Shown piece by piece: positions 32,332 through 62,488 of a DNA stretch of 64,000 nucleotides. Made by a program: the position numbers and the translations under genes. The notes under the pieces were generated by a model, which was not told where the DNA came from, made no database searches, and saw only the letters and a list, made by a program, of their open reading frames with translations. Origin of the DNA: Cyanophora paradoxa CCMP329 (Eukaryota > Plantae > Glaucophyta); the NCBI GenBank assembly GCA_004431415.1, contig QPMI01000513.1, positions 124,001-188,000 of the forward strand. Reading direction: 5' to 3'. Each line of letters begins with the position of its first letter. Within the stretch, counting starts at the first letter, position 1.

Positions 32332-34996
32332 TCAGACACGATTTTTGTAATGCCCAATAGCCCAGGTGTTGATTTTATCATTATCTAGAAAACGCTTCGT
32401 ATCTAGCGGATGCAACGCTTGACGAGAGGTATTTTGCAGATATATTTCATGTCGTTTCGAACGGAAACCGAGAATTCCTTTGATATCATACGATTGTTTT
32501 TCTCCTTTTTTTGGGCAGACACACCGGAGGAATACATCCCTTGTGAGTCTGTTGTAATATGTTTTTTGAATACCTTTGCACACCTGCTTATCTGTGGAAT
32601 CTTCACGCGAATAATAGTAAGATTTCGGCCGGTTAGCGATCCACTCTGTCATTTGTAGACCATGAAGCTCATCCTTGAATAATCCCGGAGTTTTCCCCAT
32701 CGATCGTAGAGCTCGAACCTCATCGGCTGTCATGCCATCAAAGAATCGATGTGTCTCTGGGTAGTCGCTAACATCCAGCTCATGCTTGATTGAGCGTAAA
32801 TCAGCATAGATATCTTTGGTGCGAACCTCGATGATGAGACTGTCAGTATCAGTTCCAAGTAGCTTAAGCCGATGACCCCAAAGCGGTTTGAGCACCTGAT
32901 AGTAGAAGCGATACATGTGCAGCTTGGACAATTCGAGAATGACAAATCCACAGTAAATTGGTTTATTTAAATTATACTCACTTTTTCGCTTGGAAACGAA
33001 TACAAGGTTCTCTTCGTACATCACCACCTGCTTCAACCGATTTGGTTCGCTGTTTATCTTTGCCAAACGATCACCAGATGTAACAAGCTCGGAGAAACAG
33101 TGTTTTCTCACGTTCTCCATCGTCTTTCCGAATACACTGTTATTCATTAACTTGAAGAGATCCTGTTTGTATTTGTGATCAGCACGCTTGCGTTCACTTG
33201 TATTAAGATCGATGAAATCGTTCAGCCACGCACTTTGTTCGTACGATTAAACACGGTGGATGTTGGTTACAATCATTCCCAGTGTAGTATAAAGCTTAAG
33301 CAAACGCCCATCAACAACATAATTCTTCTTTGGCAACAGGTTTGGAACCAATTTTGGGGTTCTTTCGACTGAAGTAAGCTTTTCGTTGTTAATCATATCC
33401 TGCTGTTGTTTCGATAGATGATCTATGGACACGCACATTCGTTCAGGAGCTAGTGGATAATCTGAGAAATCATCGTGGAGATGGTCAGGCATGTACATAT
33501 CAACTTCTAGAGCATAGCCACGAGGACCATCAGCGTCAAGGTTTTCAACGAACTGCATAGCATCAACATCTTGATCGAGTTTTTCCCAGCGGAAACCTCC
33601 AGTGGGGAGTTTTTGTTTCATAGCAACGCCATACAGATTATTCGCATCAAGGTACATCAGCCACGATTCTTTGCCTGTTTTTTCGTAGTTTTGCACACAT
33701 TCAATCTGGGTTGCTGATTCATCAGCATGCGTATATTTTCCAAATTTCTTTAAAATTGTCGCTGCTTTTGCTGCTTTCTTTTTATTCTTTGCAATCACTC
33801 TTGAACTCATGTCTTTTACGTGTTTCAGGAACTCGTTATCAGCTTTAGCGTATCTCTTTGATATCATGCTGATGCCACCCCTAATTCCTGATTCTATGAA
33901 TCTATACATATCTTGTTGTCCCTCGTGAAAAAGCTCAAGCTTAATTCCTGTGCGTTTAAGAGCAGCTTGCCAAGCGAATCCTGGTGATGATATGAAATAG
34001 CTTGGATCTAATCCATACGTTTCCATGCATGTATCACGATAGTTTTCAAATACATCGGCAAGTAACGAAATGTCAGTATTCATATATTCCATAGTATAGT
34101 CTGATATCGTTCTACATGCAAGCTTTCTCCAAACGATCTGAGCATGTGCGTACTCGTCTTTTGAGCATTTCTTTTGTTTTAGTTCGTTCTTAAAGTATCG
34201 ACGTACAGGTAGTTCTGTTTCTTGAAAACGTTGCCAGCTTGATATATAGCTATATGGATATATCCCTTGCTTGTCATCAACTCGAATCTAGTATCATCCG
34301 GATACATTGTGCGCGTGATCTTCTTCTTCTCCGCTGGGACCGCTTTCGCTAGATCATCCAAACTAGCATTCAAATGTTGCATCGAATCACGAAGTACATA
34401 AATTCCATACTTAAACTGTGATATCTTCTCGCTATTCTGAAAGGTTTGATCAAATTTGATCGAAAGGAGACTCTGCGGGCGGAGCCGGCGTTCGAGCCCC
34501 TTCTTAACCTTCTTTTTCTGCTCTGGGGTCATCTCACGTCCACCGTACTTGCTTTGAAACTCACTTTCGACATGTGCTTGAAACTCAGCCCAAGCTGCTG
34601 AACGGCGGTTTTTGCCAGATGCTATTGCTCTCACGAACAGGTGAAAGTCAAATCCACGACCATTATGAAAGAATATAGGAACAGCAGCAGATTTTGCACG
34701 GCGGCGATTGCAAGCACGACAGGCTGCTCCAATGTATTTACCTGTATCATGACAGTGATCACGGTGCTTGTCTTTGATATCTTTGAACGTGTTTTTGCAC
34801 ATATAACAGTCTGTCGTTGTTTGAAAACACTGTTCCTCTTCCGGATTCATCTGGATTGGTACACTTGCTTTGAGAAGTTCTCTAAATTGTGGTTCCATTT
34901 CGTCAAGCCATTTTACGAACTTATCAGCACAGTCTTCATTCTCGGAACCCATACATTTAAATGAAAACTGTTCGCCTTTCGAAGATACAACCAGAC
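32332..34996 (-). pseudogene. Protein-primed DNA polymerase B of element A, 3' part (frameshifted, cut off by element B)
   Basis: RDHCHDTG (EndoVII-like), ExoII FHNGRGFD, ExoIII YMNTD, YLDANNLYG, MNNSVFGK, TDTDS across three ORFs. Confidence 0.92.
34991..34996 (+). repeat. Left 6-bp target-site duplication CCAGAC
   Basis: Identical hexamer at 62483-62488 immediately outside the TIRs. Confidence 0.95.
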
Positions 34997-36104
34997 ACAC
35001 ATAGTAAAATGCGGAGTTTTAACCCTCGGCTTATCTTAATTGATTTTGTTGATATATCTCGTATATTCTATTTCAATCAATCGATAATCTGTGTATATCT
35101 TATCGAATATTCATTTATTTCGTTTATTTTGTATTCTTTTCGATATTTTATCGTAAATTTCTCTTATTTTCCGATTAGTCTTACTGAGTCTATCGATAAT
35201 CTGTATATATTTCCGAATAATATAACTGAATCTCAATTAGATCTTGCCTCTGGTTAAAACTCCGCATTTTACTATGTGTGATTGGTCTAAAAGTTAATTG
35301 ATTTAATCGATATTATATTCATGTACTTTCTCGATTAAAATTTAATTAAATTTAATTCATTTAATCGGAAATATATCGCTAAACTCGATTAAGATCCATA
35401 AATGATTCATTTGTTTATATTAACAAATCGATCTCTTATTGAATTCAATCGTAATTATACATGAAACTTATATGATTTTATCATTGTTTTGTTGAGTCTA
35501 AGGGGGGACCCTTAGAAAATTGGGTGTGACAGGTGTGACAGGTGTGACAGGTCAATCCCAAGGAAAGTCCTAGTGAGAAATTGATTTTTAAAATCCACGG
35601 GATAAACCTGTCACACCTGTCACACAAACCATATTCAGTAAGGACCTCATATATTGTGAAAATCTCAGTGTTAGTTGTTGTTAAATCTTTCAGGCAGCAT
35701 TTATTTGTCAGGCATTAAATCTATCGATTTTCATAAAGTATTTTATTTTGGCTAAGTCATTGTTTGGATTAACAATGAAATTTCAATTTTATAAAAGTTT
35801 TCTAAAAAGGTGCCTGACAATGCCTGACATACTATATTAGTGCCTGACAACTATATTATAGTGCCTGACAAACCATATATGGTAATACTATATGTTATAA
35901 CCTACTTTCTCAGTGTTAGTTGGTGTAGTTGATTCAAATAATGCATTTTATACTCTGATTCATTGTTATTTCCTGTGAAATTTGAGTCAACTCAACCCAC
36001 TTAGTCAACCCTTGCATTGAATTCGTAACAAAATCCATATACTATCGATTAATATGAGTCAACCTTGAGTCCACTTTAATAATAGGGGAATCTTGGGAGA
36101 TGCT
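34997..36104 (+). repeat. Left terminal inverted repeat of element B
   Basis: Reverse complement of 61379-62482, with single-base indels in homopolymer runs; begins ACACATAGTAAAATGCGGAG. Confidence 0.95.
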
Positions 36105-36120
36105 TATTAGATGCTATTAA

Positions 36121-37506
36121 TTAGCTAGTTTTGGTCCTTTCTCTTAGTGTTCTTTGAGGTTTAGGGGCTGTATATGACTCCTTAGTAGTCTGAAAGTCAT
36201 TATACCATCTTTGGCTATTCACTTCTGAAAGTTTCTGTGTTCCTGCTATAGTGAGCTTTTTGAGTTCCCTGTTAACTTTGCCAGCCTTCTCCTTTCTAGC
36301 CTCTATCAAAGGCTTATCTGGGACTTCATTAGCAGCTTCTATGCCCTCTCTCCTTATAGAAGCATCAACCCTAGCTTCCTCTTTGGCTTGCTCTAAGGCA
36401 TCCACTGTAGGGGCTTCCAGATACTCAACTGCATTCACAGGCAACAGCTCATGGAAAGCAAACCTGTTATCTATGATCTCTCCAGTGGGACTCTTTAGCT
36501 TAAACTTAAAGCCTTCTCTACTATCAACAGTGTAAACCATCCTAGACCAATTGTTACCCTGTTTAGCAAATGGGTTCTTCTCTACTTTCACTCTAACAAA
36601 CATGCCAGGCTGCATGGTATCAAGATAAGCTATTGATTTCTTGAATCTTTCATCTTCTAATCCTACTATATACCTATAATGCTCCTCTGTAGTTTCACCT
36701 GGCTTCATCTTAGTAGCTGAGTGAACTGTATTATTGTAATTAAACTCAATATCACCCAACACATCAAAGAATCTAGCTGTGTTATTAGCTATGCAATAGT
36801 TTGTGATCAGTCTCTTAATCTGCTTGTTAAAGGCTTCAATTCGACCTTGGCTTCTATGGTCAGCAGTTCCACTCACTTGGTGTTCTATGAATTTACTAGA
36901 TAAATACTCCTGGAATATTCGATTTTGGAATTCACTCCCAGCATCTGATTGAACTTTTACTATGGGTCTTGCCACTCTCATTTCAAGCTGTTTAAATGCA
37001 GCTAATGTAGTGAGAGCTGATTTATCCCTTATAGGTATGATATACCCAGTTCTCAGTGTTGATTCCATTGCAGTCATAAAGGTATCATAGCCATTGTTTT
37101 GTTTCTTATAAGCTGGGAAAAAGAGCAAATCAATCACATAGGTATCAAGGGGTTGCCTAATTGGGACCATGGGATCTCTCTTCCTAGATATAGCAGGTGC
37201 ATTGATCTGAACTACCTCTTGTTTTTTATAGAACTCTTGCAACTGCTTATAGGATTCATCTGGTAACTCAGCCCTCATAGCTTGAAGCCCTTTGTAACCA
37301 GTTCTCACATCATAGAATCTCTTGGCAATCTTGCTTGTTTCTTTCACTGCAATAGCAACTGGAATCTCTACTGGGACAAGCTCTTTCATTTCAGACTTTT
37401 TTACAATTCGAGATTCCCCCTTTTCCTCCTTTGGAACTGTGATGGGCAGTAGGTTTCCTTGCAGTTGCTCAGTGGTTCTCCTAACTATTCTTCCAGTTGC
37501 TGGCAT
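36121..37506 (-). CDS. RVE-family integrase, element B
   Basis: DDE triad YVIDLL, QSDAGSEF, GRIEAFNKQIK; YNNTVHSATKMKP. Confidence 0.95.
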   Translation of the reverse strand: MPATGRIVRRTTEQLQGNLLPITVPKEEKGESRIVKKSEMKELVPVEIPVAIAVKETSKIAKRFYDVRTGYKGLQAMRAELPDESYKQLQEFYKKQEVVQINAPAISRKRDPMVPIRQPLDTYVIDLLFFPAYKKQNNGYDTFMTAMESTLRTGYIIPIRDKSALTTLAAFKQLEMRVARPIVKVQSDAGSEFQNRIFQEYLSSKFIEHQVSGTADHRSQGRIEAFNKQIKRLITNYCIANNTARFFDVLGDIEFNYNNTVHSATKMKPGETTEEHYRYIVGLEDERFKKSIAYLDTMQPGMFVRVKVEKNPFAKQGNNWSRMVYTVDSREGFKFKLKSPTGEIIDNRFAFHELLPVNAVEYLEAPTVDALEQAKEEARVDASIRREGIEAANEVPDKPLIEARKEKAGKVNRELKKLTIAGTQKLSEVNSQRWYNDFQTTKESYTAPKPQRTLRERTKTS

Positions 37507-37509
37507 CTC

Positions 37510-40500
37510 TTAATTAAAAGGAACAGAATTAATACCATCTGGTAAGATGTATCTCTTTGCATCAAAGCAGTTTAGGGCAACCCTTCTACTCACAGTGTCT
37601 ATTATTGTGTGATCTGCCCTTCTTTTCTGCTTTGCAGTCACAGTCTTGCTGATACCTGCAAATAAACACTGTTTAAAATCATTAAATTGGAGTTCCTCAG
37701 TTGAAGTCCCAGAGAGCTTACTCCTCTCAATCTCAGCAGTTCTGAAACTGTAAACTTTTGCTCTCAGACCCACATACTCCAATATAGCAGAGCCAGGCAT
37801 TTCATTTTTGTATTTACCTGGGGTCATTCTGGAATCACCTCCAAGGTCTAATGCATAGGATATATTCTCTATATCTTTTTGTAGGGTCTTAGATTCGATA
37901 TATAGACAAAAGGAGTCAGTATCATGGAATAGTAACTTTGCTTTTGTCCATTGGGACCTTACAGTATCATAGAAGAACTTGTAGTTATGCAGTTTGGCTG
38001 CATCCAGAACATAAGCCCCAATAGCAACTGGCTTATCTAGCTTCACATGCTTTGTGTAAAACTCAAAGGCAACTGCTTTTTCGTTTATGGGACTTGTTGA
38101 TTTCACCAATGGGGAGGCTGCATATTTCATAAACAGTTTCTCACTGTTTGCAATCTTAACCACAGATCTACCTCTGCAAGATTCAATGCATTTCCCATAG
38201 ATTGAGTTATTCATGAGTTTATAGAAATCAGCCTCGAATTTATTCACTGCTTTCCTTCTCATCTCAGTATTCAGCTCAATGTAGGGTTTCATTACAGGAG
38301 CCACAGTAAATGATAGGACCCTGTGAACCTTCTTTAGTTTCACCCCTTTGTCCAACAGATACTGTAGAAGAGGCTCAGAAATCACATAGTTGGTCACAGA
38401 ACCAAAGGTTGCAGTTAGCTTAGGGGTCTTATCAAGCTCTTCTCCTGAGAGATCTAATAGGCTCTTTTGATATTGTGATAATTCTGCATATTCTACTATT
38501 TTCTTGTTAATAATTAGGGGGAAATCACTGTGGTCTAGATATAGCCTAATTGGGTAATCCAGATCAACTTCCAGGAAACTGGATCTGTTATCTTGTGGGT
38601 TGAATTCGGTCTCCCATCTAAAATCACCAACTGGAATTGGCTGACTCAAACAGTAGCCATACAAGTTGTTAGCATCAAACAGCATTATATGGGAGTTCTC
38701 ACCATCAGCCTCAGCATACCTACAAGGCATTGTTGCAAAGCCACCCCTGATTCCCCTCTCAACAAATTCGTATTGCTCTACATCACTGATGAGTTCTATT
38801 TTTGCCTCGGTGGTCCTAAGCATAGCATCCCAAGATAGCCCAGGTGCAGATACATAATGAACTGGGTCAAGTCCATATACTGAGTGTGAAAGCCTTCTGA
38901 AAGCCTGGAATTTGCTCATTAACTCATCTACATCAGCAGCCCCAAAGTCCATAAAATTACTTGCATCAATGAACTTGTAAAGACCCCATTGCAATGAAAG
39001 GTATTGATCAAAGTTTTTCGAAAGGATTTCGATTCGCTTTTTATCACCCATGCCTGCTATTTTTCTGAAAATGAATGTCCCACAGTCATCCATTTGGTCA
39101 ACAACAACTGCAACTTTGGTTTGCTTTGAGATTCTCCTATGGAGATTGCAGTTTCTGCATGCAGGAGCAATGTAATGACCTGTGTGGTGGTCATGATCTC
39201 TGCATTTGAAGTTCTCCTTGGTGAACCTCTCACTGCAAAGGTAACAGTGTTTAGTAGCCCTGTAAACAGCCTTTTGCTCATCTGTGAGTTCATTCATGGG
39301 AATATTGGTAAACAGAAAATCGATCAGCTCTCTTGCTTTGGACTCCAAGCATTCAAAGAGACCTCCCATTGGATCCTGCCCCTCAAATCGAAAATCTTGA
39401 ACATCTTCCCCAGTGACTACTCTAAGGTTCACTGCTGAGACTTCCCTCTTGGATTTCGATGCATCAATGGGGATGCTTCTATGTTCAATCTTGCAGTAAA
39501 CCACAACAGGAAGCCACACAGTTTTCCTGAGGTTTTTCAGTCCAAACTCTATTGTGGTGTCAGGCTTAGGGGTGATTCCCTTTGAGAGTCTCCAATCAAT
39601 GCATCTGTTTGAGTCCACATGAGCAGTCAGTTTAGCCTCAGACCTGAATCGAGATAAGCATGTATCACAGTAGTGTAACTTTTGATCCTTGGTTTTATCA
39701 AGGGCAACTCTGAGAAGTCTTGAAAGGGACATGATAGTAATATAGTGACCATTCCCTTCATCATCATGAATGAGCATTAGATTAATCTTTTGCTTTCTGC
39801 CTGGGTTGCTGGATTGATGTAGGGGATATATAACATCTCCATCCATTCCAAATATGTTTATGCTGATGCCTGCATTTTGAGATTCGAATTTATCAATGAT
39901 TTCAGCATCACAAGGAACAGGGAATGGGATATTGTCGAAATTGAGAGCCAAAGGATTGTATGTGGTTGGTGAGTATTTCCATTTGCGATATTGTGTAAGC
40001 TCACTTCTCTTGTGGGAATTTACATCTTTCCTATGGATCCATGCCAAAATGGCATTTTCAAAGCAAGAATCATCAATATTTCGAATATTCACTGTGGCTC
40101 TCTTGGCTGCAATTGATTCTGGTGTTTTAACATAGCAGCCACCAGTTGGGGCATAACTCATAATAGCAACTCTGAGCATTTCGATTCTCTCCAATCGATA
40201 GCTATCAACAACATTCATCTGCTCCTGACACATTTGGGCTGCTTTATTCAGCTCAGTTCGAATATTTCTCGATTTGGTTAATACAAAATAATCGCTGTAA
40301 ATGTATTTCGATATCCAAACCTGTGGATTGCTGACTTTTACGAACTTGCAGATAAACGATAAGCGAACTTTGATTGCCCTGAATTGATCCAGACTATCTC
40401 TTAAACGTTTTGGTAGAGAGGTTGCAATTCTATCTAAATATTCAATCACATCAACAACAACTTCCCTTCTGGCTCTGTATGTGAGCCAGCGATATAATTC

Positions 40501-40755
40501 ATTCATAGCTGTTCCATCTTCCGCCTCTGGTTCTATTTGCCTCAGGCGATCCAGTTCATCAAGAGTTTCAACTTTATCATAGAGGTTATTGGCTTTTCTG
40601 GTTAATTTTGCTAAAGTGGGTCTGCCCCTTGAAATAAATCCGATTTCCCGGTCATATTCAGCCTCTGTGATTTCATGGGCTGCATACAGTGTTCCCAGTA
40701 ATCCCATGAGTTCCCATTTCTTCTCTCTAATGAGTCTGTTGCTAATTCGGGGCAT
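37510..40755 (-). CDS. Protein-primed DNA polymerase B, element B (intact ORF, degenerate exonuclease)
   Basis: FDANNLYG, KLMNNSIYGK, HDTDS, GLRAKVYS; RDHDHHTG EndoVII-like motif. Confidence 0.95.
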   Translation of the reverse strand: MPRISNRLIREKKWELMGLLGTLYAAHEITEAEYDREIGFISRGRPTLAKLTRKANNLYDKVETLDELDRLRQIEPEAEDGTAMNELYRWLTYRARREVVVDVIEYLDRIATSLPKRLRDSLDQFRAIKVRLSFICKFVKVSNPQVWISKYIYSDYFVLTKSRNIRTELNKAAQMCQEQMNVVDSYRLERIEMLRVAIMSYAPTGGCYVKTPESIAAKRATVNIRNIDDSCFENAILAWIHRKDVNSHKRSELTQYRKWKYSPTTYNPLALNFDNIPFPVPCDAEIIDKFESQNAGISINIFGMDGDVIYPLHQSSNPGRKQKINLMLIHDDEGNGHYITIMSLSRLLRVALDKTKDQKLHYCDTCLSRFRSEAKLTAHVDSNRCIDWRLSKGITPKPDTTIEFGLKNLRKTVWLPVVVYCKIEHRSIPIDASKSKREVSAVNLRVVTGEDVQDFRFEGQDPMGGLFECLESKARELIDFLFTNIPMNELTDEQKAVYRATKHCYLCSERFTKENFKCRDHDHHTGHYIAPACRNCNLHRRISKQTKVAVVVDQMDDCGTFIFRKIAGMGDKKRIEILSKNFDQYLSLQWGLYKFIDASNFMDFGAADVDELMSKFQAFRRLSHSVYGLDPVHYVSAPGLSWDAMLRTTEAKIELISDVEQYEFVERGIRGGFATMPCRYAEADGENSHIMLFDANNLYGYCLSQPIPVGDFRWETEFNPQDNRSSFLEVDLDYPIRLYLDHSDFPLIINKKIVEYAELSQYQKSLLDLSGEELDKTPKLTATFGSVTNYVISEPLLQYLLDKGVKLKKVHRVLSFTVAPVMKPYIELNTEMRRKAVNKFEADFYKLMNNSIYGKCIESCRGRSVVKIANSEKLFMKYAASPLVKSTSPINEKAVAFEFYTKHVKLDKPVAIGAYVLDAAKLHNYKFFYDTVRSQWTKAKLLFHDTDSFCLYIESKTLQKDIENISYALDLGGDSRMTPGKYKNEMPGSAILEYVGLRAKVYSFRTAEIERSKLSGTSTEELQFNDFKQCLFAGISKTVTAKQKRRADHTIIDTVSRRVALNCFDAKRYILPDGINSVPFN

Positions 40756-40867
40756 AGTTCCTAACTTGTTCCTACTAAAAGGGGAGGTTTTAAATGGGGA
40801 TATTCCGAACGCGAAAATACTTAAAGGAATTTTTATATTGTATATATATAGAAGCCAAATAGCAAGA

Positions 40868-41185
40868 ATGAATCCGGACGGTCAAAGAACGCTTAGTATT
40901 TCAGCCATCATGAGAAGTATTAAAGAAAGAAATGAAACCTGTGAAAACTCAGAATATAAACGAATTCTATGCAGTTTATGTAAATGTGATGAGACTAGCT
41001 ATGATCAGTTTGTATGTGATCAATGCTTCAAGACAGTCTGTATTGGATGCATGAAACAGCAAGAGGAAATAGTCGGGAATACAAAATGCCCATTCTGTAG
41101 AAACACATTACAGTATCCAGAGTTCACCTTGTACAACATTCTGGACTACAATGCATGTGATGTTGAAACAATTACATTTGGCTGA
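40868..41185 (+). CDS. RING-finger protein
   Basis: CSLC...CDQC...CIGC...CPFCR; ATG at 40868 follows a TTAAAG/TATA motif. Confidence 0.75.
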   Translation: MNPDGQRTLSISAIMRSIKERNETCENSEYKRILCSLCKCDETSYDQFVCDQCFKTVCIGCMKQQEEIVGNTKCPFCRNTLQYPEFTLYNILDYNACDVETITFG

Positions 41186-41236
41186 GCAACAAAAAATGAT
41201 TTAAAGAAAATATCTTCTATATAGATATATGTAAAA

Positions 41237-41887
41237 ATGTCATGCCCAATCTGTTTCAAAACTATTCAAAGGAATACAATCATTGAGCTTGCTTGTGAGC
41301 ATTTCTTTTGTGAAGCCTGCATTATAAAGTATATATATAAGGTTCATGACTCTAATGAGGTATCCCTGCTCTACTGCTGCACACAGAAAGCTTTCAGACA
41401 GTTTAAAGGGTACCCAGAAATGATGCTTGCAGAGAGCAACTATTGCATATCATGTCCTCTTTGCAGGTGTGAATATTCATTTCTTTCATACATTGCAAGG
41501 ATTTCACGGACAAATCCTCTTGAACAACTCATCTGCAAGGTGTGGTTTAGAGATGAGTTCTATGATCTTGGTTTATGTCATTATTTGACAGATGAAAATC
41601 AGTTCTATAACTATATTCCGTTGTGTGATAGGCTCCATTGGGAAAAATGTGAAAGTGTAAAAACAAATTTTGCGAATGATGTCATCAAAATGTTCAGTGA
41701 TCGCAAACACAATGAATACCACATGTACAAATGTGATTGTAAGAAGCCAATCTGCCCAAAGGTCTTTCCTGTGCCATCAGCAACATGTGATTGCAAACAA
41801 CATGCAAGCCCTGAGGAGTTTGAAGAAATGTTGCTTACATATTGTTCAAAGAAATATCCAGAAACCACAAAACAAAAAATGATTTAA
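41237..41887 (+). CDS. RING-finger (C3HC4) Cys-rich protein
   Basis: CPIC...CEHFFCEAC...CPLCR. Confidence 0.85.
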   Translation: MSCPICFKTIQRNTIIELACEHFFCEACIIKYIYKVHDSNEVSLLYCCTQKAFRQFKGYPEMMLAESNYCISCPLCRCEYSFLSYIARISRTNPLEQLICKVWFRDEFYDLGLCHYLTDENQFYNYIPLCDRLHWEKCESVKTNFANDVIKMFSDRKHNEYHMYKCDCKKPICPKVFPVPSATCDCKQHASPEEFEEMLLTYCSKKYPETTKQKMI

Positions 41888-42391: not shown

Positions 42392-44719
42392 ATGAACGCC
42401 AAACAGACTAAATCGCTCAAATCGCTCGCTAACTGGCTCAGATCTGATGAGGATCTAGCCAAAAACATGATTATCCCAGTGAAACCTGACAGCAAAGACC
42501 CTGTTTTCAAGCATAAGGGAGGTGCTTGGTCCTGGGAAAAGTATGAGGAAGCGCTGGCAACTAATCAGTATGTATCTTGGGGCATTCTGCTCTCAGACAA
42601 CATGATGGTTATTGACTTTGATGATGAGGAGGACTTTGAGAAATTCCGGGATATGTTTCCTGATGACTTTGATGCCAATCAGCCCATGGCAAAAACTAAA
42701 AAAGGCTATCATGTCTACTTTAAACGACCTGAGGAGTTCAATAAACTCAAAATTACCGATAAGGCTCCTGGCTTTAAAGGCTTTGAGAAGGTTGACCTGA
42801 AAACAATCACTGGAACTGGAACTTCTGGACTGATCAATGTGTGTCCCAGTGTGAACAAGGCTTGGGTAATCTCCCCATGGGATGATACCTGTGATTTCAA
42901 TGAGCCTACTGATGACTTCAAAAAGTGGATAATAGATAACTACATCTATAAGAGTGAGTATACTGCTAATGCTACCTCACATGATGAACTGGAAAACAAT
43001 ATTATCAAAGAGCTGGTGGATATGGGATTTATGCATCCCAATATAATCTCTAAAACTGAACTTGGCTTTAACTTTGATGCTGCTAACAAGGGACTCAATT
43101 GCCCATGCTGCAATGGTTCACATGAATCGAATAACTGGTATGTTATGAAAGCTAAAGGAGATGATAACAAATACATTGTGTCAAGCTACAGTGGAAATTG
43201 CAAAAAACGATTCATCTGCATTGGAATGCAATCTGATATCTTCAATCTTATAGATAAATCCGCTGGTTCTGGTGGCGCTCATTATGATGTGAGTTTAGTA
43301 TGCAAAGAGGTTCTTAAACATACATGGAGATACTCCAAAAAGTCATGGTTCAAACTCAATACTGATACTGGGATTTGGGAGCATGATGACACAAACCTAA
43401 AGATTTACCTAGATATAAGCCGTCTTGTTGTCCCCCAATACCTTGGAAGGGCTGTGCATTATAGTCAAAGAGCTTTAAAGGATGAGGAAAACAAAGCAGC
43501 TTTCGAAGAAAGATCCAAAACATTGATGACCATTGCCAAAAATCTTAAACAATCAGGATTTCGCAAATCCCTTCTGACTGACTTGGTCCCACTGCTGAAT
43601 GATGATGAATTCTTTGAGAAGATTGACACAGTTCCATATGTGATTGGATTCGAAAATGGTGTATTTGATCTGACCACTATGACTTTCAGAAAGGGTAAAC
43701 TGGAAGATATGGTGAGCAAGACTGTGGGTTATGACTATACTGAAAATGTAGACCCCAAGAAAATAGAGCATCTCAATCAGATTTATAAAGAGATTGTGGA
43801 TGATCCAGCAGAGCGAAAGTATCTTCTGGCATCCATTGCAATTGCCCTTAGTGGATCAACTAAATCCCAGAAGTTCTATATGTGGACTGGTGCTGGTGCT
43901 AATGGTAAATCACTTGTTCAGGAATACTGCAAACAGATATCTGGTCGTTATTACAGCCCTCTCGAAATATCCTATTGGACTAAGCCTAAAAAGAACTCAT
44001 CAGAGGCTACTCCTGAACTTGCCAAACTCCTTGGAAAGCGACTTGTATTCAGTAATGAGGCTGAAGATGGTGATAAACTGCAGATCTCCAAGATTAAGGA
44101 GGTCACAGGTGGAAATGAAATGACTGTGAGAGCCTTGTTCAAAGACCCAGTTATCCTTACCCCAATGTTTCAGGTCTACATTACAACTAATGACAATTTG
44201 ACTATAAATAAACCAGACTTTGCAATTCAAAGAAGACTTTCCTATCAGAGATTCAATAATATATTCAGAGAGAAGCCAGAAGCTGGTCAGAAGAAAGCTG
44301 ATCCAACTCTGTTCACACTTCTTCACAATGATGATGAGTATAAGATGGCTCACATGAAGATATTACTGGATATGTGGAAGAACAAAGAGGTTGAAGAGAT
44401 CTTAAGAAGTCCCCCTCAATCGATTATTGAACAGGGAATTAACTTTATAGCTGAAAATGACAAGATTGGTGAATGGCTTCGAGATAATTTCGAGGTTACA
44501 CATAATGCTAACGACTTTGTTTCCAGTGATATCATTTACAAATCATACAAAAGTGTTGATGATAAAGTTGAATGTGTATCTGTTATGAAAAGAGTAAGGG
44601 AGATCTTCAATGTAAAATCAGAAAGAAAACGAGTTAATGGAATTCTAGCCAGAGGATATATTGGGATTCGAAAGATAACAAGGGTTCAGGAAGACAATGA
44701 AGATGATGCCGAATATTAA
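42392..44719 (+). CDS. Primase-polymerase (Prim-Pol) fused to a D5-like SF3 helicase
   Basis: GILL...VIDFD and TKKGYHVYF primpol motifs; CPCC..H zinc motif; IGFENGVFDL; Walker A GAGANGKS; AIQRRL. Confidence 0.92.
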   Translation: MNAKQTKSLKSLANWLRSDEDLAKNMIIPVKPDSKDPVFKHKGGAWSWEKYEEALATNQYVSWGILLSDNMMVIDFDDEEDFEKFRDMFPDDFDANQPMAKTKKGYHVYFKRPEEFNKLKITDKAPGFKGFEKVDLKTITGTGTSGLINVCPSVNKAWVISPWDDTCDFNEPTDDFKKWIIDNYIYKSEYTANATSHDELENNIIKELVDMGFMHPNIISKTELGFNFDAANKGLNCPCCNGSHESNNWYVMKAKGDDNKYIVSSYSGNCKKRFICIGMQSDIFNLIDKSAGSGGAHYDVSLVCKEVLKHTWRYSKKSWFKLNTDTGIWEHDDTNLKIYLDISRLVVPQYLGRAVHYSQRALKDEENKAAFEERSKTLMTIAKNLKQSGFRKSLLTDLVPLLNDDEFFEKIDTVPYVIGFENGVFDLTTMTFRKGKLEDMVSKTVGYDYTENVDPKKIEHLNQIYKEIVDDPAERKYLLASIAIALSGSTKSQKFYMWTGAGANGKSLVQEYCKQISGRYYSPLEISYWTKPKKNSSEATPELAKLLGKRLVFSNEAEDGDKLQISKIKEVTGGNEMTVRALFKDPVILTPMFQVYITTNDNLTINKPDFAIQRRLSYQRFNNIFREKPEAGQKKADPTLFTLLHNDDEYKMAHMKILLDMWKNKEVEEILRSPPQSIIEQGINFIAENDKIGEWLRDNFEVTHNANDFVSSDIIYKSYKSVDDKVECVSVMKRVREIFNVKSERKRVNGILARGYIGIRKITRVQEDNEDDAEY

Positions 44720-44760
44720 ACAAAACGATTGATGATTGAGATTTACATATATTTTTATAG

Positions 44761-44880: not shown

Positions 44881-44948
44881 CTATCGGAAAAGACCAAAAT
44901 TTGACAAGAATACTTAAGGCTTACTTGATTGTGTATAGTGAAGACAAA

Positions 44949-49816: not shown

Positions 49817-49845
49817 TCTTCTTTTATCTATATTTATATATTAAA

Positions 49846-50778: not shown

Positions 50779-52323
50779 AGGCACCTGTAAAGTCAACTCT
50801 CATTGTGGGAGCATTCACATACACAAGGGGATAAATGCGAATATACTTGATTCTCAGAGAATAACCTATGTAAAAAGCATCCTTGATGCTGAGAGGGAAC
50901 CCACTCAATAGAGCCATATCACCTGAGTTGTGAGCATTGTTAATGTTCTCACAGACATATATTTTGTTTTGCCCATCTGATCGAATAAAAGACCAGTTGA
51001 TCCCATCAGTGGATGTTGCCACATTGAAAGTCTTAATAAAAGCATTGGTGTCCCCTGATCCATAGGCAATCACAGAAGAGAGTTCAAAAGTATATGGGAA
51101 AGCAACTTGAAGGTATTCAGTGGGGTTTCCCATATCTGCTCAGGAGCATAGGCTCCAGCTTCCCAGCCAAATGCTGAAGGTCTAGCCATGAAAGGCTCTT
51201 TACCTGTCACAGAGGATGATGCAGTAAAGGCATCATCTGCAAGCTGATACCAATTAGCATCTAAAGGAGGTGACTCTGTGAGAGTGGATGAGATGTAAGC
51301 CTTTGTAGGGTTCTTTAGTTCATAGTTTGCTACTAGTAGGCTGCAAAGCTTATTAATCATATCATTGTTTGCTGCAATGTATGTTTCAGTGAATGCTAGC
51401 ATATCTGGGATCTTAGAAGTGTCATCAAGGGAGCTTACTATGTGATTTGGAAGAGGGACTGATAACCTATAGTATCTCCCATAATCCTGATCATAGTTGT
51501 AGGGTAACAACTCCTCCATCTTATCAAGGGCAGAAAGCTCACTTGCAGCCATGAGCATGTTAATCAATGGGCTTCCATCTGTTGAGGCAATCCATGAGAG
51601 AATGCCCCAGCTGTTTACAGTCTCATAAGCATAACCCACATAATCAGACTCTAAATGTGGGTCCACCTCACCACAAGAGATACTTATTACTATAATATCA
51701 TCATCATCACTGTAAATCTTCTTTGCATGGCTGTAACCACACACACTGGGATTATTGTTTCCCGAAATGGCACCATCAATGAGACAGACAAATACCCCCT
51801 GATTGAAATCAACAATGCTTACAGGAGAGAAATATGTAGGAGCAGCAGAAGTAGCCCTAGCAGCAATCTTACAAGGCAGAAAGCTGTAATTGTTATCATT
51901 TGTGATAAATATTGGTTTCATATTCTGAGTATCAAAGGATGTAATCACAATGTCCTTTAGGGAATCCTGTATTAGTGATTCACCAGTAACTGAATTGATT
52001 GCAGTCTCCAAGGGTCCCACATCATACTTTGTGTTAAATAGGGCATTTTCGATGATATTTCGAGGATTTGCAAAAATCAAGGGCAGTTGAGTTAGGTAAA
52101 TGTTGTGTAAATCGTTTGCTGTCAGTTTAGGTTCACCTGGTTTATCAGGATGTCTTATATTCAAACCTATTGCAATGATCCCACCAGTGGAAGTTCCACT
52201 CACAAGATCCACAAGATCGATTATTCTTCTTCCAGTTCGATTTTCGATTTCTTTGAGCAGCCTGGTTATGATAATGCCCCTTGCACCTCCCCCTGATAAA
52301 GACAGGCAGATTTTCAAGGGCAT
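50768..52323 (-). CDS. Patatin-like phospholipase fused to an F5/8 type C (discoidin) domain; frameshift near 51130
   Basis: GGGARG, GTSTG, ATSAAPTYF, DGA; then FTASSS...EYLQV...STDGINW...YIRIYP...MRVDF. Confidence 0.88.
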
Positions 52324-52366: not shown

Positions 52367-55300
52367 ATGAGCTTCAATTACCCACCCAATCTAGAAACCA
52401 TTCAAGATGATAATGCAAGCAGCACCAAGCATGTGAACTTTGATAATATTAAAGTAAAGGGTTCAGTTTCGATTGACCACAGTTCCGATAATTCATCCAA
52501 GACTCAATCAAGGGAGCATGCTTTATCTGTGAATCAAACCGATCCAGATAAGGAGGAAGTCAGTGTTGCTTTTAGCTTGGGTAATGTGAAAGCAAACCAA
52601 GTGGCAGAGATCAAAGCAACAAGAAGGAGACCTAGGAAACTAAAAACCAGTGGCACTCACCCAGATATACCTTCCAGGTTTGATAGTGGTCGATTGATTT
52701 TCAATGTTCAAGATGAGCAGGGCAAACAGAACACAGCTTTGCGAATTTACAATGAGGGCAGCATTGCAAAAGCTGAGGTCCCCCAAGTATTGCAAGTGGG
52801 TCCCATTGCCAATACAAATCAGGTCTCCTACACAAATGATGTCTACCCAAGGATATTACATATGACTTTGCAAGGAATGAGCCTTTTGGGTTCTTTACTC
52901 CAAAAGATGTCCATCAAAAAAAGCCATCAATTACAATCAACAGTAGCCCCAGTCAGCCAGTAGCAATCCATTTACATCCTGATCTTGTTGAAATGGATAG
53001 GCACCTTTTGCCTTTGTATAGCAATGTGAAAGACCTTGGAATTCGAACCAGGCAATGGCGAAATATCCATGGCAGCAATGTGTATGCAAATGGTGAGAAG
53101 CTTGTAAGTGAGAAGACCATAAGAGAGATCTTTGAGTATTATGGACCTGTCCCAGTTCCCTTCCCTCTTCCATGGGATCCACCGGATTTAACACCGAAAA
53201 AGCAACCAGGCAGAGAGTACACAGCAGATGAGACAGTTCCTTTTGGGCAACACATTGTTAGTTGGGAGCAAGTTCGCAATAAACCTATAATTGAACCAAG
53301 AAAGCAAATAGATGAGCAGTATTTACCTCCTGAAGTCGATATATTAGAGCTTGATGAATATCAATTCGTTCCAGATGAGGAAGAGTATTTACCAGATGGT
53401 TTTGACCCACAAGAATATGAATATGATCAGTTTGACCCCAATGAGGAGGAGATACTACCAGATGGCTTAGATCCCCAAGAGTTTGAGTATGAGCAGAACT
53501 ATGAACCTGATGAGGAGTATTTGCCAGATGGGCATGATCCACCAGCTGTTGATTATGAGCAACCTTATGAACCCATGAGGAATTATTACCAGATGGATTT
53601 CGACCTGAGATCTGGGAGTTCTTTCCTGATTATGAACAAATTAATAATAAACCTGCAAAGTATCCCCAGAGGATCACAATCATGATTGGGATGAGATCTT
53701 AGGGAAACCAGAGAAATATCCACCAGAGGATCACAGACATGATTGGGGAGAAATTGATGGGATTCCAACTGAGTTCCCACCAAGCAAACATGAACATACT
53801 TGGGATGAGATCAATGACCAACCAGAATTTGCAAAAGTTGAGCCTCTTGCTACTCTGGGAGTTTCTCTTTACCAGACTTGCAATGTCCCTGAAAGGATCT
53901 TTTTGAATCACCACTATGTTCATGTGAATGGGACACTTGCGAATTCAGCTATGAGAGGACCACTTCATATTAGGACATTACCAGGCTCTTATAATCCACC
54001 ACCTGAACCAGGAGCAACCATACCAAATATCTTTGTGTCAAGCTACATGGAGGCTGACATTCCCACAGATACATTCAGAGTCCAACAGACCCAGCAACCT
54101 ACCAAATTACAACTCTGCTATACAGGTTCATGTAGCAGATGTAAGCAGTCTAGATGGATCAAGACCAATGATAGTTTTCAGTCGAGATAAATATTCCTAT
54201 ATTCCCATAGTGGGAACTGCAAATGATAACTATGGGAGGGCAGAGCTTGCATGGATTAAAACAGATTATGGTGGGGTTCTGGAAGCCAATCAGAGGATGG
54301 CTGCAAAAAACATACACAACGAAAATATTTCGAGAGTGGTCACAGAGGATTACCTTACTGCAGTAATCCTTGTTAATTTTGTAACCCTTGCTATGCTTGA
54401 TCAATTTATTACAGAAGCTGAACTTGCAGCAGAACTATCCAAATATCTCCCTCTTGTGGGTGGGACAATCACAGGAAACCTCACAGTTAATAGTAATATT
54501 TACAGTAGCAATATAGAGACCAGCAATTTGAAAGTAAATGGAATCCTCACAATTGGCTCTTGCAATTTCAATACCATGAATCAGGTTTACGAAGAATGGT
54601 ATGATGTCCCACCAAGCTTTGATCCAGCATCAAATATCTCGAACTGCATTTTTGCTTGGAAGGCATCAGGAGTACCAGGTCAATCAGCAATGTATACAAC
54701 TATAGTAAGCAGAGTCCCGAATTCAGTTGTTCCAGACTTGTTTATCTCCGGAGCCAGTTCCTATTACACCAATCCCGAAATCAACAACCAAGTTAGTGTT
54801 TCAAGCCCAACAGGCACTTTTTATGCATATACCTCTGCTACAAGAACTATTGATTTCTCAAATGGGCTTACATTTTTCTTTGTGGGAAAATATCATCCAA
54901 CTGCCTCTTCTATGCAAGTTCACTTGAGACTTTACAGAAGCGCCTTTCCATCACGATATTGTTATTATGGGGCAACATCTTCTACTGCTATTGGAATGAA
55001 CCAGTTCACTATTAATGGAGCATCCCAAAACGCCCAGTTATTACGGTTCCTTCTTTAATAAATACATGGTATTACACTGACCAAACAATTACTTCCAGCA
55101 GCTACACAGTCGGGTTAAATGGAGTAGATATTGAACACTTGTAGGAACAAATTATCTACCAGATAATACTGTCAATCATTTCGGATTTGGTAATATTGTG
55201 AATGGTGGTATTTCCGAGTTGATTGTTTTCAATAGGGCTTTGACAACTTCTGAAAAGAATGCTGTGAGGTATTACATTCAACAAAAATATGGATTCACTC

Positions 55301-58300
55301 ATACCCAGACTCTGAATATTTACAGAGGATTAAAAATAACCTCACCTGATACTGTAATAGATTACCTTACAGTTACAAGCAATGCAAATTTACCACATCA
55401 TCCAACCTCTAATGTGGTTCAAGGTTGGATTCAAAATCACACTCACACAAAAGCCCAGATTACAGATTTTGCCCATACTCACACAAAAGACCAAATAACA
55501 GATTTCGCCCATACTCACACAAAAGACCAAATAACAGATTTCGCCCATACTCACACAAAAGACCAAATAACAGATTTCGCCCATACTCACACAAAAGATC
55601 AGATCACAGATTTCGCCCATACTCACACCAAAGATCAGATCACAGATTTCGCCCATACTCACACAAAAGACCAAATAACAGATTTCGCACATACTCACAC
55701 CAAAGATCAGATCACAGATTTTGCCCATACTCACACCAAAGATCAGATCACAGATTTCGCCCATACTCATTTATGGGAGCATATCACAAATCCTCCATTA
55801 ACCTTCCCACCTGATTCACACACTCATGATTACTCAACAATAACCAATAGCAACCACAGACACCCTTGGAGTCAAATAGATGAACAACCAACTTTTGCAT
55901 CATCAGGCAATATTTTGACAGACTTTACAAATGGTGTGAGTCTCTACCAGAGTAATACCATACCTGAAAGGCTACAACTAAATGATTATTATGTCAATCG
56001 AAAAGGCATTGATGGAGGGACCACAATGGAAGGTGAATTATACATCAAACAACCAACAAGAATCCAAATGATTTCAGCAGGTGGTGTTGGGGTGATTGAT
56101 ACCAAACCAGGCATCTTCTTAACAAGTTATTATAATGAGGACATCCCATTGACATCAGGATTACCACCTCTCCCATCTGATCCAGCAGCATATGATGACA
56201 AGGATGCCATTATGCAAGTAAATGTAACAGATGTCAGTGCAACTGATGGCTCCAGACCTAAAATAATATTCAGTCGATCCAAATTCAATTATGTCCCACT
56301 TGCGGGACAACCATCAGATAACTATGGGAAATGCGAAATGTCCTGGATTAAAACATTAGCAGGAGGAGCCTTAGAAGTCAATCAGAGGATGGCAGCAAAA
56401 AACTTACACAATGAGACCCTCTCTGGTGTTGTTACAGATGATTATTTAGAAAACAAAGATTATGTAACAAATACAGAATTACAATTAGCTCTTACAGATG
56501 TTGTAACAGATACCGAATTAACAGCAGCTCTTGGGAATTATTTACCTCTTACAGGTGGAAATGTAACAGGAACTGTGAATGCTACCACTTTACAAATTGG
56601 TGGAACCACAATACCAAAAGGTTACGATTTCGACCAATTAGATGTGGTTTCGACAGATAGAAGCGCAAATAATTGGAATTTGAATTGGGTCGCAAGAACA
56701 GGACAAACAGGATGTTACACAACACCACATAATGATGAAGATTGCAGTGGTTGTTGGATGAGGTGGACAGTTCCAGAAGGTATGAAATCGTTTTACATTC
56801 AGCATATGCCGTGGGCGAATTGTCGATATTATGATATCTACGGGCAAACAGCCAATAATTACCAGCATTTCTTAAAACGTATAAATGCATATCAGGGAAT
56901 CCAGGCAGTTAATCAAGATGGGACACATAATACTGTTTTGTTTGCCTCAATCAATTGTGAGTTTTACACAAAGATATACATTCAAGGTCGAAAAGGTCGC
57001 ATTCATCTAACGGGTGTTTTCGGTTGGAGTAGACAGAGAGCAACAGATAATGAATTGGGCATGATCTCTTGGGATAATGTATTTAGTAAACCATCATTTT
57101 ACTCAGCCGCAGACCTTCCACAAACCGCAACATGGCCAACAAATACATGGTTAAAATCAGTAGATGCAGTCGAGCGAATTTGGTTTGGTAATGGTCAAAC
57201 AACATATATTCGAGGTTATGAAAATGGTGATGGTGTATCTGTCGAATTTAGAAACTCAGCGGATGCAGCAATCTTAAAATCATATGGTAACGGTAACTTT
57301 TGGGTGAATAATACTATTACAGCATCCACTATTAATGCTACTACCAAACTCCAAATAAACGGTAATGATGTCCCAAAGTTTCACACAGCAGATAAAACAG
57401 TAGGAGCAATTGAGTTTAATAGATGTTCTCAGGGTTGGAGCTATCACTGGGGGACATCATGGGATCCATATTATAATTATGGTTCATATGTCTATAATGA
57501 TCAATATGATGACCAAACTTCTACCGCTTGGATGGACTTCGATATTCCCGATGGATACCACACAGGAACAGCATTTTTAACTTATTTACCTTGGCAAAGC
57601 TCACGACTTTTTGAAATTTGGGGAGTTAATAGACAAGGAAATGAAGTTTTTATTACATCAGTGAATAGTTATCAACCATACGCCACATCTCCTGATAATA
57701 ACCATAGTGGTTTAAATAATGTTCCTATACATCTTGGTAATCGATTTCTCACAATTCGAATTAGACCAAAGATTGGAAGAGTTCATATTATGGGTATAAG
57801 TTACATGAAAATATGGGTTGGACATAGTTATGGCGGTCACACCGGTTATATTCATTGGAATAATGTTTATAGTAAACCAAATATCTTAACAGGAACTGTG
57901 GGGACTTGGTTTAGTTCAAGTGATGGATATAATCGTATCCATTTCGGTAACCAAACTTCTACATATTTGAAAGGAGGGGGAGATATTCCCCTTGTATTCC
58001 GAAATGAACAAGATACTGATATTTGTTACATGTATCATGGAGGATGGATGTGGATTGGAGGTTATTAACACAAGGAAGTGACATAAGATACAAAACCGAT
58101 ATTAAAAAGATATCCGGCGCTCTTTCAGCAATAGAGAAATTAGAGGGAGTGAGTTTTAAACGAATTGGAAGTGAAAAAGATGGAGTTAAATTAGGTTTAA
58201 TTGCACAAGATGTTCAAAAGGTAATACCAGAGGTAGTTAATGTTAAAAAAGACGATGGCTACCTATCTCTTGAATACACAGGTTTAATTCCAGTTCTCAT

Positions 58301-58379
58301 TGAAGCTGTGAAGGAGTTGTCCCAAAAATGCAAAGATCTACAGGATCAAATAGACCAAATTAAAAATGTCAAAGTATAA
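52367..58379 (+). CDS. Large modular fibre/spike protein (several frameshifted ORFs) ending in a peptidase S74 intramolecular chaperone
   Basis: HxH/W..I..KP tail repeats, YLPLxGG motifs, LamG-like ELIVFNRALT...KYG, C-terminal SDIRYKTDI...GLIAQDVQKVIPEVV...LIEAVKEL. Could be one gene or 2-3 genes. Confidence 0.75.
53330..53580 (+). repeat. Acidic coding repeats (PDEEEYLPDGxDPQExEY)
   Basis: About 3-4 imperfect units in ORF 52993..53685. Confidence 0.75.
55438..55761 (+). repeat. Nine 36-bp tandem repeats encoding HTHTKDQITDFA
   Basis: In-frame; variation almost entirely synonymous. Confidence 0.95.
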
Positions 58380-61144: not shown

Positions 61145-61378
61145 TGGGTTTCTATAATGATAAACAGGGTAATTTACCTTTTTTATTACAATGGCAATCG
61201 TTAAAAAAGGATATAATATATCCTTTCCTACAATAGCTTTATACAATGATTTTCTTTCTACAGTAGCTTTTGTTACAATAGAATTCTACTGTATGATGTA
61301 GCCGAAATATGAATGCACCCTACATTAAGCAATGTCAAGTATTTCGAATACTATTCGATTTCCTTACACTAAAACCTC

Positions 61379-62482
61379 AGCATCTCCCCAAGATTCCCCC
61401 TATTATTAAAGTGGACTCAAGGTTGACTCATATTAATCGATAGTATATGGATTTTGTTACGAATTCAATGCAAGGGTTGACTAAGTGGGTTGAGTTGACT
61501 CAAATTTCACAGGAAATAACAATGAATCAGAGTATAAAATGCATTATTTGAATCAACTACACCAACTAACACTGAGAAAGTAGGTTATAACATATAGTAT
61601 TACCATATATGGTTTGTCAGGCACTATAATATAGTTGTCAGGCACTAATATAGTATGTCAGGCATTGTCAGGCACCTTTTAGAAAACTTTTATAAAATTG
61701 AAATTTCATTGTTAATCCAACAATGACTTAGCCAAAATAAAATACTTTATGAAAATCGATAGATTTAATGCCTGACAAATAATGCTGCCTGAAAGATTTA
61801 ACAACAACTAACACTGAGATTTTCACAATATATGAGGTCCTTACTGAATATGGTTTGTGTGACAGGTGTGACAGGTTTATCCCGTGGATTTTAAAAATCA
61901 ATTTCTCACTAGGACTTTCCTTGGATTGACCTGTCACACCTGTCACACCTGTCACACCCAATTTTCTAAGGTCCCCCTTAGACTCAACAAAACAATGATA
62001 AAATCATATAAGTTTCATGTATAATTACGATTGAATTCAATAAGAGATCGATTTGTTAATATAAACAAATGAATCATTTATGGATCTTAATCGAGTTTAG
62101 CGATATATTTCCGATTAAATGAATTAAATTTAATTAAATTTTAATCGAGAAAGTACATGAATATAATATCGATTAAATCAATTAACTTTTAGACCAATCA
62201 CACATAGTAAAATGCGGAGTTTTAACCAGAGGCAAGATCTAATTGAGATTCAGTTATATTATTCGGAAATATATACAGATTATCGATAGACTCAGTAAGA
62301 CTAATCGGAAAATAAGAGAAATTTACGATAAAATATCGAAAAGAATACAAAATAAACGAAATAAATGAATATTCGATAAGATATACACAGATTATCGATT
62401 GATTGAAATAGAATATACGAGATATATCAACAAAATCAATTAAGATAAGCCGAGGGTTAAAACTCCGCATTTTACTATGTGT
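61379..62482 (-). repeat. Right terminal inverted repeat of element B
   Basis: Ends ...CTCCGCATTTTACTATGTGT, followed by the TSD. Confidence 0.95.
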
Positions 62483-62488
62483 CCAGAC
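62483..62488 (+). repeat. Right 6-bp target-site duplication CCAGAC
   Basis: Matches 34991-34996. Confidence 0.95.

What the first reader, a model, noticed from the sequence alone, without database searches (positions are those of the whole stretch)
34991..62488. A complete endogenous virus inserted inside the DNA polymerase gene of a related endogenous virus, which itself appears to interrupt a host BTB gene
Seen: TIRs at 34997-36104 and 61379-62482, flanked by CCAGAC on both sides. Deleting the insert plus one TSD gives, on the minus strand, CAT GTG ATT GCT TCA GTC GGC TGT CTG GTT GTA TCT = HVIASVGCLVVS, joining ORF 62475..62876 to ORF 34179..35000 in frame. The site is shortly downstream of the ExoI motif (YADSE). 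The two viruses are relatives: both have pPolB directly followed by integrase, similar MCPs, and integrase tails sharing RREG...RELKKL.IAG. The inner pPolB-INT cassette has the same orientation as the one it disrupted. Known: 6-bp TSDs are the Polinton RVE-integrase signature. Inference: B either inactivates or parasitises a competitor, or simply favours AT-rich islands in a very GC-rich genome; precise excision would restore A.
Basis: partly seen in the sequence, partly recalled or inferred. Interest (0 to 1): 0.85.

Follow-up and report, generated by a model that had tools for sequence, protein, structure and literature searches.

The report
Algal virus nested in another's polymerase
A 27.5-kb Polinton-like virus sits inside the DNA polymerase gene of a distantly related one, in what is likely the alga Cyanophora paradoxa, and the landing spot is likely chance because that genome carries hundreds of such viruses.

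Summary
Observation confirmed. Element B (34997-62482) has 1.1-kb inverted repeats without substitutions and a 6-bp target duplication, and splits the pPolB gene of element A in frame. Public DNA runs hold the uninterrupted A sequence at this site (3 of 4 runs). No listed contig bridges either B|A junction. A itself cuts a single-copy BTB gene.

The host is likely Cyanophora paradoxa: both capsid families are already listed for it, with 366 capsid hits in two clusters. Random insertion predicts about 0.5-1 such B-in-A-polymerase events, and other B ends run into GC-rich DNA, so targeting is unsupported. A and B share only 22-32% amino-acid identity. Nested Polinton-like viruses are described in Halocafeteria, and this scan noted a similar nesting in another genome (e1-7908313).

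This repeats a pattern described for mavirus.

The parts
34991..34996 (.). Left copy of 6-bp target-site duplication
62483..62488 (.). Right copy of 6-bp target-site duplication
34997..36104 (+). B left TIR (1108 nt); its first 283 nt form a hairpin closed by a perfect 28-bp inverted repeat; holds a GTGTGACAG palindromic array
   Evidence: (z -9.3)
61379..62482 (-). B right TIR (1104 nt)
36121..37506 (-). B RVE integrase, 461 aa, open frame
   Evidence: PF00665 E 2.6e-4, below cut-off; transposase PHROG E 3.5e-10
37510..40755 (-). B protein-primed DNA polymerase B, 1081 aa, open frame; ExoI/II/III residues lost and about 93 aa deleted; polymerase motifs kept
40706..41887 (+). Two B ORFs with Cys-rich fingers (second is RING-type)
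   Evidence: RING hits for 41237-41887 only
42392..44719 (+). B Prim-Pol/D5-like primase-helicase, 775 aa
   Evidence: PF09250 (E 4.9e-5), PF08706, PF19263; PHROG primase E 7.5e-61
44737..44881 (.). Internal copy of the TIR's GTGTGACAG palindromic array, separating B's replication/integration genes from its capsid genes
   Evidence: (I5, I6, I14)
46631..47326 (-). B packaging ATPase
   Evidence: PF04665 E 2.3e-12
47386..48752 (-). B major capsid protein, one frame break near 48270 (no reads laid there)
   Evidence: 55-63% to P0001; family listed with HHpred MCP hits in PMC10120064 Table S2
48806..50778 (.). Two likely minor capsid genes of B (48806-49816 minus, 49846-50778 plus)
   Evidence: weak similarity to A 27433-28308 (E about 1e-4); weak PF19254 hit; minor-capsid label is inferred
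50768..52323 (-). B patatin-like phospholipase followed by an F5/8 type C domain in another frame
   Evidence: PF01734 E 4.8e-20, PF00754 E 2.5e-7
52367..58379 (+). B fibre-like gene region in several frames, ending in a peptidase S74 chaperone; 36-nt tandem array at 55366-55863
62483..63945 (-). A pPolB, 5' part (includes ExoI YADSE), in several frames in the window
32332..34996 (-). A pPolB, 3' part (ExoII, ExoIII, polymerase motifs); frame break near 34263, in-frame stop at 33247-33249
31420..32322 (-). A integrase, 300 aa
   Evidence: 26% to B integrase, E 6.8e-7; hits beside pol in 4 of 4 IMG/VR loci; no Pfam hit
30456..30992 (-). A HNH-AP2 endonuclease
29583..30287 (+). A packaging ATPase
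   Evidence: PF04665 E 1.9e-11
28353..29581 (+). A major capsid protein, frame break near 28722
27433..28308 (-). A likely minor capsid gene
   Evidence: label inferred
26222..26251 (+). Inferred left end of A: single-copy contigs stop at 26250-26251, which puts the start of multi-copy DNA near 26222 if contigs overlap by 30 letters
   Evidence: table 8; inference
25431..26221 (+). Single-copy spliced BTB gene cut by A; exon 25940-26068 matches BTB positions 33-75 of 110, and the next exon (26192-26221) has 10 codons before A begins

Best explanation
A complete, likely recent Polinton-like virus (B) lies inside the pPolB gene of a second, distantly related endogenous Polinton-like virus (A), likely placed there by B's own retrovirus-type integrase at a site likely chosen without regard to A. 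Shown: the TIRs, the 6-bp duplication, the in-frame split, and uninterrupted A copies in public runs. Inferred: B's integrase makes a staggered 6-bp cut, as Polinton integrases do (established knowledge). Also inferred: with hundreds of B-type and A-type copies in a 100-Mb genome such nesting arises by chance, and it is kept because hitting a provirus costs the host little. The insert parts ExoI from the rest of A's polymerase, so this A copy likely cannot replicate by itself. B encodes its own integrase, polymerase, ATPase and capsids and would not need A. B's polymerase is predicted to lack proofreading and to work with a separate primase-helicase.
For: TIR/TSD anatomy. Empty site in 3 of 4 runs. 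A contig identical to A over 34526-34997 runs on with 7 letters that do not fit B (X12 record 16). A contig of another run starts exactly at 34997 with 235 other letters before it (X15 record 18). Of 4 other B right-end flanks shown, 3 are 73-87% GC and 1 is 53% by hand count, and that fourth flank has no match in the window. With 272 and 94 capsid hits in 99.9 Mb (PMC10120064 Table S4 row), the expected number of B-in-A-pol events is 1.05 (P of at least one 0.65), or 0.53 (0.41) if only half the pairs have this order. The pol gene is up to 40% of the visible A. No DNA similarity between A and B beyond two 28-32-nt hits. No sequence-specific integration found for mavirus-like elements (PMC8547959 passage). 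Nested PLVs are common in Halocafeteria.
Against: No genome-wide map of B sites was possible (no genome held), so enrichment in viral DNA is not excluded. The flank sample is 4 rows, biased towards single-copy DNA and towards flanks that resemble this one. The chance estimate assumes that every capsid hit is a whole element with a pol gene, that the two clusters are the A and B families, and that the host is C. paradoxa; I did not see the table's column heads and read the columns from their arithmetic. No listed contig bridges a B|A junction.
Confidence: 0.72

Rival explanations
1. B's integrase has a soft preference for AT-rich or provirus-type chromatin, so it lands in resident viruses more often than chance without recognising A.
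For: The site is in 43-46% GC DNA against 74% host DNA. Ngaro retrotransposons show strong bias for endogenous virophages (91% of type 1; PMC8547959 passage). 14 nested viral elements in Halocafeteria.
Against: 3 of 4 other flanks seen are 73-87% GC. One event needs no bias.
Confidence: 0.18
2. B targets A-family polymerase genes to disable or exploit a competitor.
For: The insert splits an essential gene of a near-identical multi-copy family, and most other breaks in that gene look like assembly errors, so A may have been functional when hit.
Against: A single event, expected by chance. Other B ends lie in host-like DNA. B is self-contained and shares no DNA with the visible A. The shared orientation has a one-in-two prior.
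Confidence: 0.06
3. The nesting is a misassembly of two high-copy repeats.
For: Both families are multi-copy, the window carries many one-base errors, no listed contig bridges a junction, and PMC10120064 section 7 warns of false consensus in such regions.
Against: A misjoin would not duplicate exactly 6 bp on both sides of B's true ends and leave A's sequence otherwise equal to the empty site seen in public runs. The contigs laid drop rare variants, so their silence is not absence.
Confidence: 0.04

Closest known systems
Endogenous Polinton-like viruses of Cyanophora paradoxa (Bellas et al. 2023, PMC10120064, supplement Tables S2 and S4)
   Same: A's capsid is near-identical by eye to gene_58741; B's capsid is close by eye to gene_64235 and 55-63% identical to gene_47449 (= P0001). 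366 capsid hits in two clusters.
   Different: The main text has 0 hits for 'Cyanophora' or 'nested'; the rows I saw list capsids, not this arrangement or the polymerases.
Nested PLVs and virophages of Halocafeteria seosinensis (bioRxiv 10.64898/2026.07.28.741278)
   Same: Whole viral elements inside other viral elements (5 PLVs, 9 virophages); palindromes in the TIRs next to the TSD.
   Different: Different host. Section 8 does not describe a PLV inside another's pPolB gene. There, palindromes go mostly with non-pPolB replicases; B has both pPolB and a primase-helicase.
Tandem and multi-replicase polisuviruses (bioRxiv 10.64898/2026.10.13.758929, section 13)
   Same: Two replicase classes in one genome, and internal repeats that set the replication genes apart from the capsid module. 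One example, EVE_QPMI01_83, bears the prefix of the C. paradoxa row in PMC10120064.
   Different: Described as tandem or transpoviron-like elements; I cannot tell whether that contig overlaps this locus (figure not held).
Mavirus pPolB with remnant exonuclease plus separate SF3 helicase (Krupovic et al. 2024, PMC11161782 passages)
   Same: Loss of exonuclease together with a helicase gene, next to an RVE integrase.
   Different: B's closest pol homologues are exonuclease-intact polinton-type enzymes, its helicase is fused to a Prim-Pol domain, and no protease was found, so this is likely an independent loss.
Polintons/Mavericks
   Same: pPolB, RVE integrase, ATPase, capsids, long TIRs, 6-bp TSD.
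   Different: No maturation protease among the ORFs scanned; B ends in AC...GT here, whereas AG...CT ends are what I recall for Polintons; B carries fibre, patatin and primase-helicase genes.

Membership tests
Polinton-like virus (B) | [quoted passage not shown] | tested here: inconclusive
   No Pfam hit; the single-sequence fold of P0001 failed (pLDDT 34). Homology to proteins with HHpred MCP hits of 92-98% probability in PMC10120064 Table S2 supports it indirectly.
Polinton-like virus (B) | A32-type packaging ATPase | tested here: met
   PF04665 E 2.3e-12
Polinton-like virus (B) | 15-40 kb with TIRs | tested here: met
   27,486 bp, 1.1-kb TIRs
Polinton-like virus (B) | Minor capsid protein | tested here: inconclusive
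   Two candidates, weak similarity only
Polinton/Maverick (B) | Protein-primed family B polymerase | tested here: met
   PF03175 E 1.9e-13; model pLDDT 86.3, top structural hits phi29 polymerase E 1.9e-18; exonuclease motifs lost
Polinton/Maverick (B) | RVE integrase and 6-bp TSD | tested here: met
Polinton/Maverick (B) | Adenain-like maturation protease | tested here: not met
   No protease hit among 41 ORFs scanned in Pfam or 27 in PHROGs; short or very divergent ORFs could be missed
Mavirus-like virophage (B) | Virophage-type capsid and protease | tested here: inconclusive
   No protease found and no virophage capsid hit. By my reading of the head row, Table S4 places both Cyanophora clusters under 'Iterative HMM searches', not 'Virophage'. 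No direct profile comparison was run.
Virophage lifestyle (A or B) | Dependence on a giant virus | not testable with these tools
   needs infection experiments
Polinton-like virus (A) | Capsid, ATPase, pPolB, integrase | tested here: met
Polinton-like virus (A) | TIRs and TSD | not testable with these tools
   A's other end lies beyond the window and no genome is held
BTB/POZ gene (host) | BTB domain | tested here: met
   PF00651 E 5.2e-6, 27.1 bits over cut-off 20.5; best PDB hit KLHL22 E 0.0018

The most novel reading that the evidence does not exclude
The B family steers its integration into resident Polinton-like viruses and so disables a competing viral family inside the host genome: virus-against-virus warfare by insertion.
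Probability: 0.1. Interest if true: 0.7.

Novelty: new member of a known kind. Interest (0 to 1): 0.3.

Why it matters
As it stands this is a clean, datable three-layer stack (host BTB gene, then A, then B) of a kind already reported in another protist. It shows the order of invasion of two viral families in a likely glaucophyte host, and that one-base assembly errors can make intact-looking proviruses appear decayed. If B sites proved enriched in A elements, it would be an example of targeted antagonism between endogenous DNA viruses that my searches did not find described. The side finding, a high-copy family whose polymerase lost proofreading while carrying a separate primase-helicase, offers a likely independent test of the proposed trade-off between exonuclease and helicase in these viruses.

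Tried and rejected
Whole-genome mapping of B sites: no genome held. Junction-spanning contigs: none among the rows listed (thousands of rows not shown, and contigs drop rare variants), so no verdict. Expression: no RNA holder listed; the one possible RNA run laid (X15) may be DNA. Summed contig depth (host about 30, A about 240-2300, B about 3900-18900 in X1 apart from one low bin) is not a copy number and is used only as a hint that both families are multi-copy. BTB tests used a reference one base out of frame; their blanks mean nothing, and the test was redone. Single-sequence fold of the capsid homologue P0001 failed. Close relatives of B's pol: best 38% in JGI metagenomes, 34% in IMG/VR; a search with P0007 gave one 30% locus, so the gene neighbourhood of P0007 is unknown. 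Five window proteins are not in the exact-match collection. That several other B flanks begin like this TSD was rejected as a target motif, because only contigs that resemble the window's flank are long enough to be laid. 'A was already decayed' was my first reading and was dropped once the extra breaks matched homopolymer errors. Paper searches found no description of this locus; bioRxiv supplements and all figures were not available and may hold one. Searches of earlier scan notes by place, by sequence and by words on the exonuclease loss were blank.
Full report
Observation. The window has a 74% GC, intron-rich left part and a 39-46% GC right part from about 26.2 kb. Inverted repeats at 34997-36104 and 61379-62482 match in 1102 of 1102 aligned columns; a global alignment has 8 one-base gaps, all in homopolymer runs, and no mismatch. 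CCAGAC flanks both ends. The polymerase pieces on either side are in the same frame and align end to end with homologous pPolBs, the break lying between ExoI and ExoII.

Independent reads. Fourteen public runs hold half or more of the sampled words of 30500-40400. I laid 5 different runs as contigs. In 3 of 4 DNA runs a contig covering 62483 onward is preceded by the window's own 34975-34990, or its last 10 letters, so uninterrupted A polymerase genes exist; those listed differ from this copy at 5-6 of about 120 positions. A contig identical to A over 34526-34997 runs on with 7 letters that do not fit B. Another contig begins exactly at 34997 after 235 unrelated letters, which confirms B's end at another site. 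No listed contig bridges a B|A junction; the contigs drop rare variants and most rows were not shown, so the junctions rest on the TSD and the exact match to the empty site.

State of A. In the window A's polymerase has several frame breaks besides B and an in-frame stop at 33247-33249; its capsid gene is broken near 28722. Public contigs carry one extra base at 28722 and 34263 (3 of 3 DNA runs) and at 62841, 62855, 63036, 63063 and 63676-63677 (4 of 4 runs). The places checked lie in homopolymer runs, and at 34263 and 63676 the contigs are otherwise identical to the window. These are likely assembly errors, a problem that PMC10120064 section 7 describes. The stop is covered only by a contig with 35 other differences, so it is unresolved. 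Single-copy contigs end at 26250-26251, which puts A's left end near 26222, ten codons into an exon that follows a BTB exon (PF00651, positions 33-75 of 110, E 5.2e-6). A therefore cuts a single-copy BTB gene. My earlier BTB tests were out of frame and are void.

Host and families. The only database hit of B's capsid C-terminal part was P0001 (55%, 1 of 1022 candidates), a Cyanophora paradoxa protein. Table S2 of PMC10120064 lists six C. paradoxa capsids, one near-identical by eye to A's and one close to B's; Table S4 gives 366 hits in two clusters of 272 and 94 (I read 99.9 Mb and 7.3% from the arithmetic of the row, not from column heads). The host is thus likely this glaucophyte alga, and both families were already catalogued. 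A and B are distant: ATPase 32%, polymerase pieces 27-30%, integrase 26%, capsid 24-29%, likely minor capsid 23-26%, and only two 28-32-nt DNA hits. In a tree of the palm region (37 rows: both window pieces, P0007, 4 IMG/VR proteins, and 30 of the other 119 homologues, the top 8 plus 22 at random) A groups with B and P0007 at 95/80, with a long-branch warning.

Targeted or chance? B encodes an integrase, polymerase, primase-helicase, ATPase, capsids, patatin and fibre genes, so it would not need A. If every capsid hit marks a whole element, random insertion gives 1.05 events of one family in the other's 4.1-kb polymerase gene (P of at least one 0.65), or 0.53 (0.41) if only half have this order, about 5 in 20-kb A-type elements and about 20 in any PLV. 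Four other B right-end flanks were shown; by hand count they are 87, 77, 73 and 53% GC. This small, biased sample argues against strict targeting or a strict AT preference but cannot exclude enrichment. I could not map sites genome-wide.

B's polymerase. Of 125 aligned polymerases (B, 4 from IMG/VR, 120 database hits), 118 keep all six exonuclease residues scored, 2 keep five, 3 are N-terminally short, and only B (1 of 6) and P0007 (0 of 6) have lost them; the span before the palm is 30 residues in these two against a median of 123. Among 63 rows reaching ExoI after adding metagenome loci (B, P0007 and the 4 IMG/VR rows counted again), 55 keep all six, 6 are partial frames, and only B and P0007 show the loss. 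A keeps all three motifs. The model is confident (pLDDT 86.3) and matches phi29 polymerase. None of 85 fetched loci has a hit to B's primase-helicase (many are short contigs). PMC11161782 states that exonuclease loss goes with helicase gain in mavirus and PLVs (passages), so B is likely an independent case of a described pattern. No joint was listed over this part of the gene, a weak hint that the deletion is family-wide.

B's ends. The first 283 nt of each TIR fold into a hairpin closed by a perfect 28-bp stem (z -9.3). A GTGTGACAG array occurs 15 times (0.19 expected), five in each TIR and five at 44779-44880, just after the primase-helicase. Palindromic TIR ends and internal repeats around replication modules are both described. 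A role as replication origins is my inference.

Literature seen. PMC8547959, PMC12220804, PMC11161782, PMC12721341, PMC12747079: passages. PMC10120064: passages, section 7, and rows of supplement file 2. bioRxiv 10.64898/2026.07.28.741278: passages and section 8, which reports 5 PLVs and 9 virophages inside other viral elements. bioRxiv 10.64898/2026.10.13.758929: passages and section 13. PMC12220804 also notes discoidin-patatin fusions in glaucophyte and rhizarian PLVs and S74 fibres. Searches found no account of this locus; figures and preprint supplements were not available. AG...CT Polinton ends are recalled, not from a call.

Verdict. Real, cleanly resolved, and of a known kind. Likely an untargeted insertion (0.72); soft bias 0.18, targeting 0.06, misassembly 0.04. 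Interest 0.3.

Noticed in passing
window 37510-40755 (-): B's pPolB lacks the ExoI, ExoII and ExoIII residues and about 93 aa; only P0007 (45% identical over residues 300-800) shares this among the homologues examined.
   Followed up: yes
window 34997-35279 and 62200-62482: Each TIR end is itself a 283-nt unit bounded by a perfect 28-bp inverted repeat, so each end carries two copies of the terminal sequence.
   Followed up: partly
window 44737-44881: Internal copy of the TIR's GTGTGACAG palindromic array, between the replication genes and the capsid genes.
   Followed up: partly
window 62476: In 2 of 4 runs one B-like end stops 6 bp short (ending in ACT) and runs into GC-rich DNA: a truncated copy or a subfamily with AG...CT-type ends.
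   Followed up: no
window 62551: In 3 of 4 runs a contig matching A's pol from 62551 onward is preceded by 255 or more letters absent from the window: a diverged A variant or another insertion 68 bp from the B site.
   Followed up: partly
window 30456-30992 and 41009-41675: A's HNH-AP2 gene and B's RING gene region show much lower summed contig depth than their neighbours, a weak hint that they are optional in their families.
   Followed up: no
window 55366-55863: 36-nt tandem array of about 10 copies in B's fibre-like region.
   Followed up: no
window 25431-26221: The BTB gene is 52% GC against 74% for neighbouring host DNA, yet single-copy and spliced.
   Followed up: partly
window 1-1300: Low-GC stretch (46% in the first kb) with short GTA runs and a repeated 25-nt motif near 1005 and 1235; possibly the end of another mobile element.
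   Followed up: no
window 1683-5180: Host genes with bPH_2, short-chain dehydrogenase and Stk19 matches; the bPH_2 gene starts with what looks like a plastid transit peptide (recalled pattern).
   Followed up: partly
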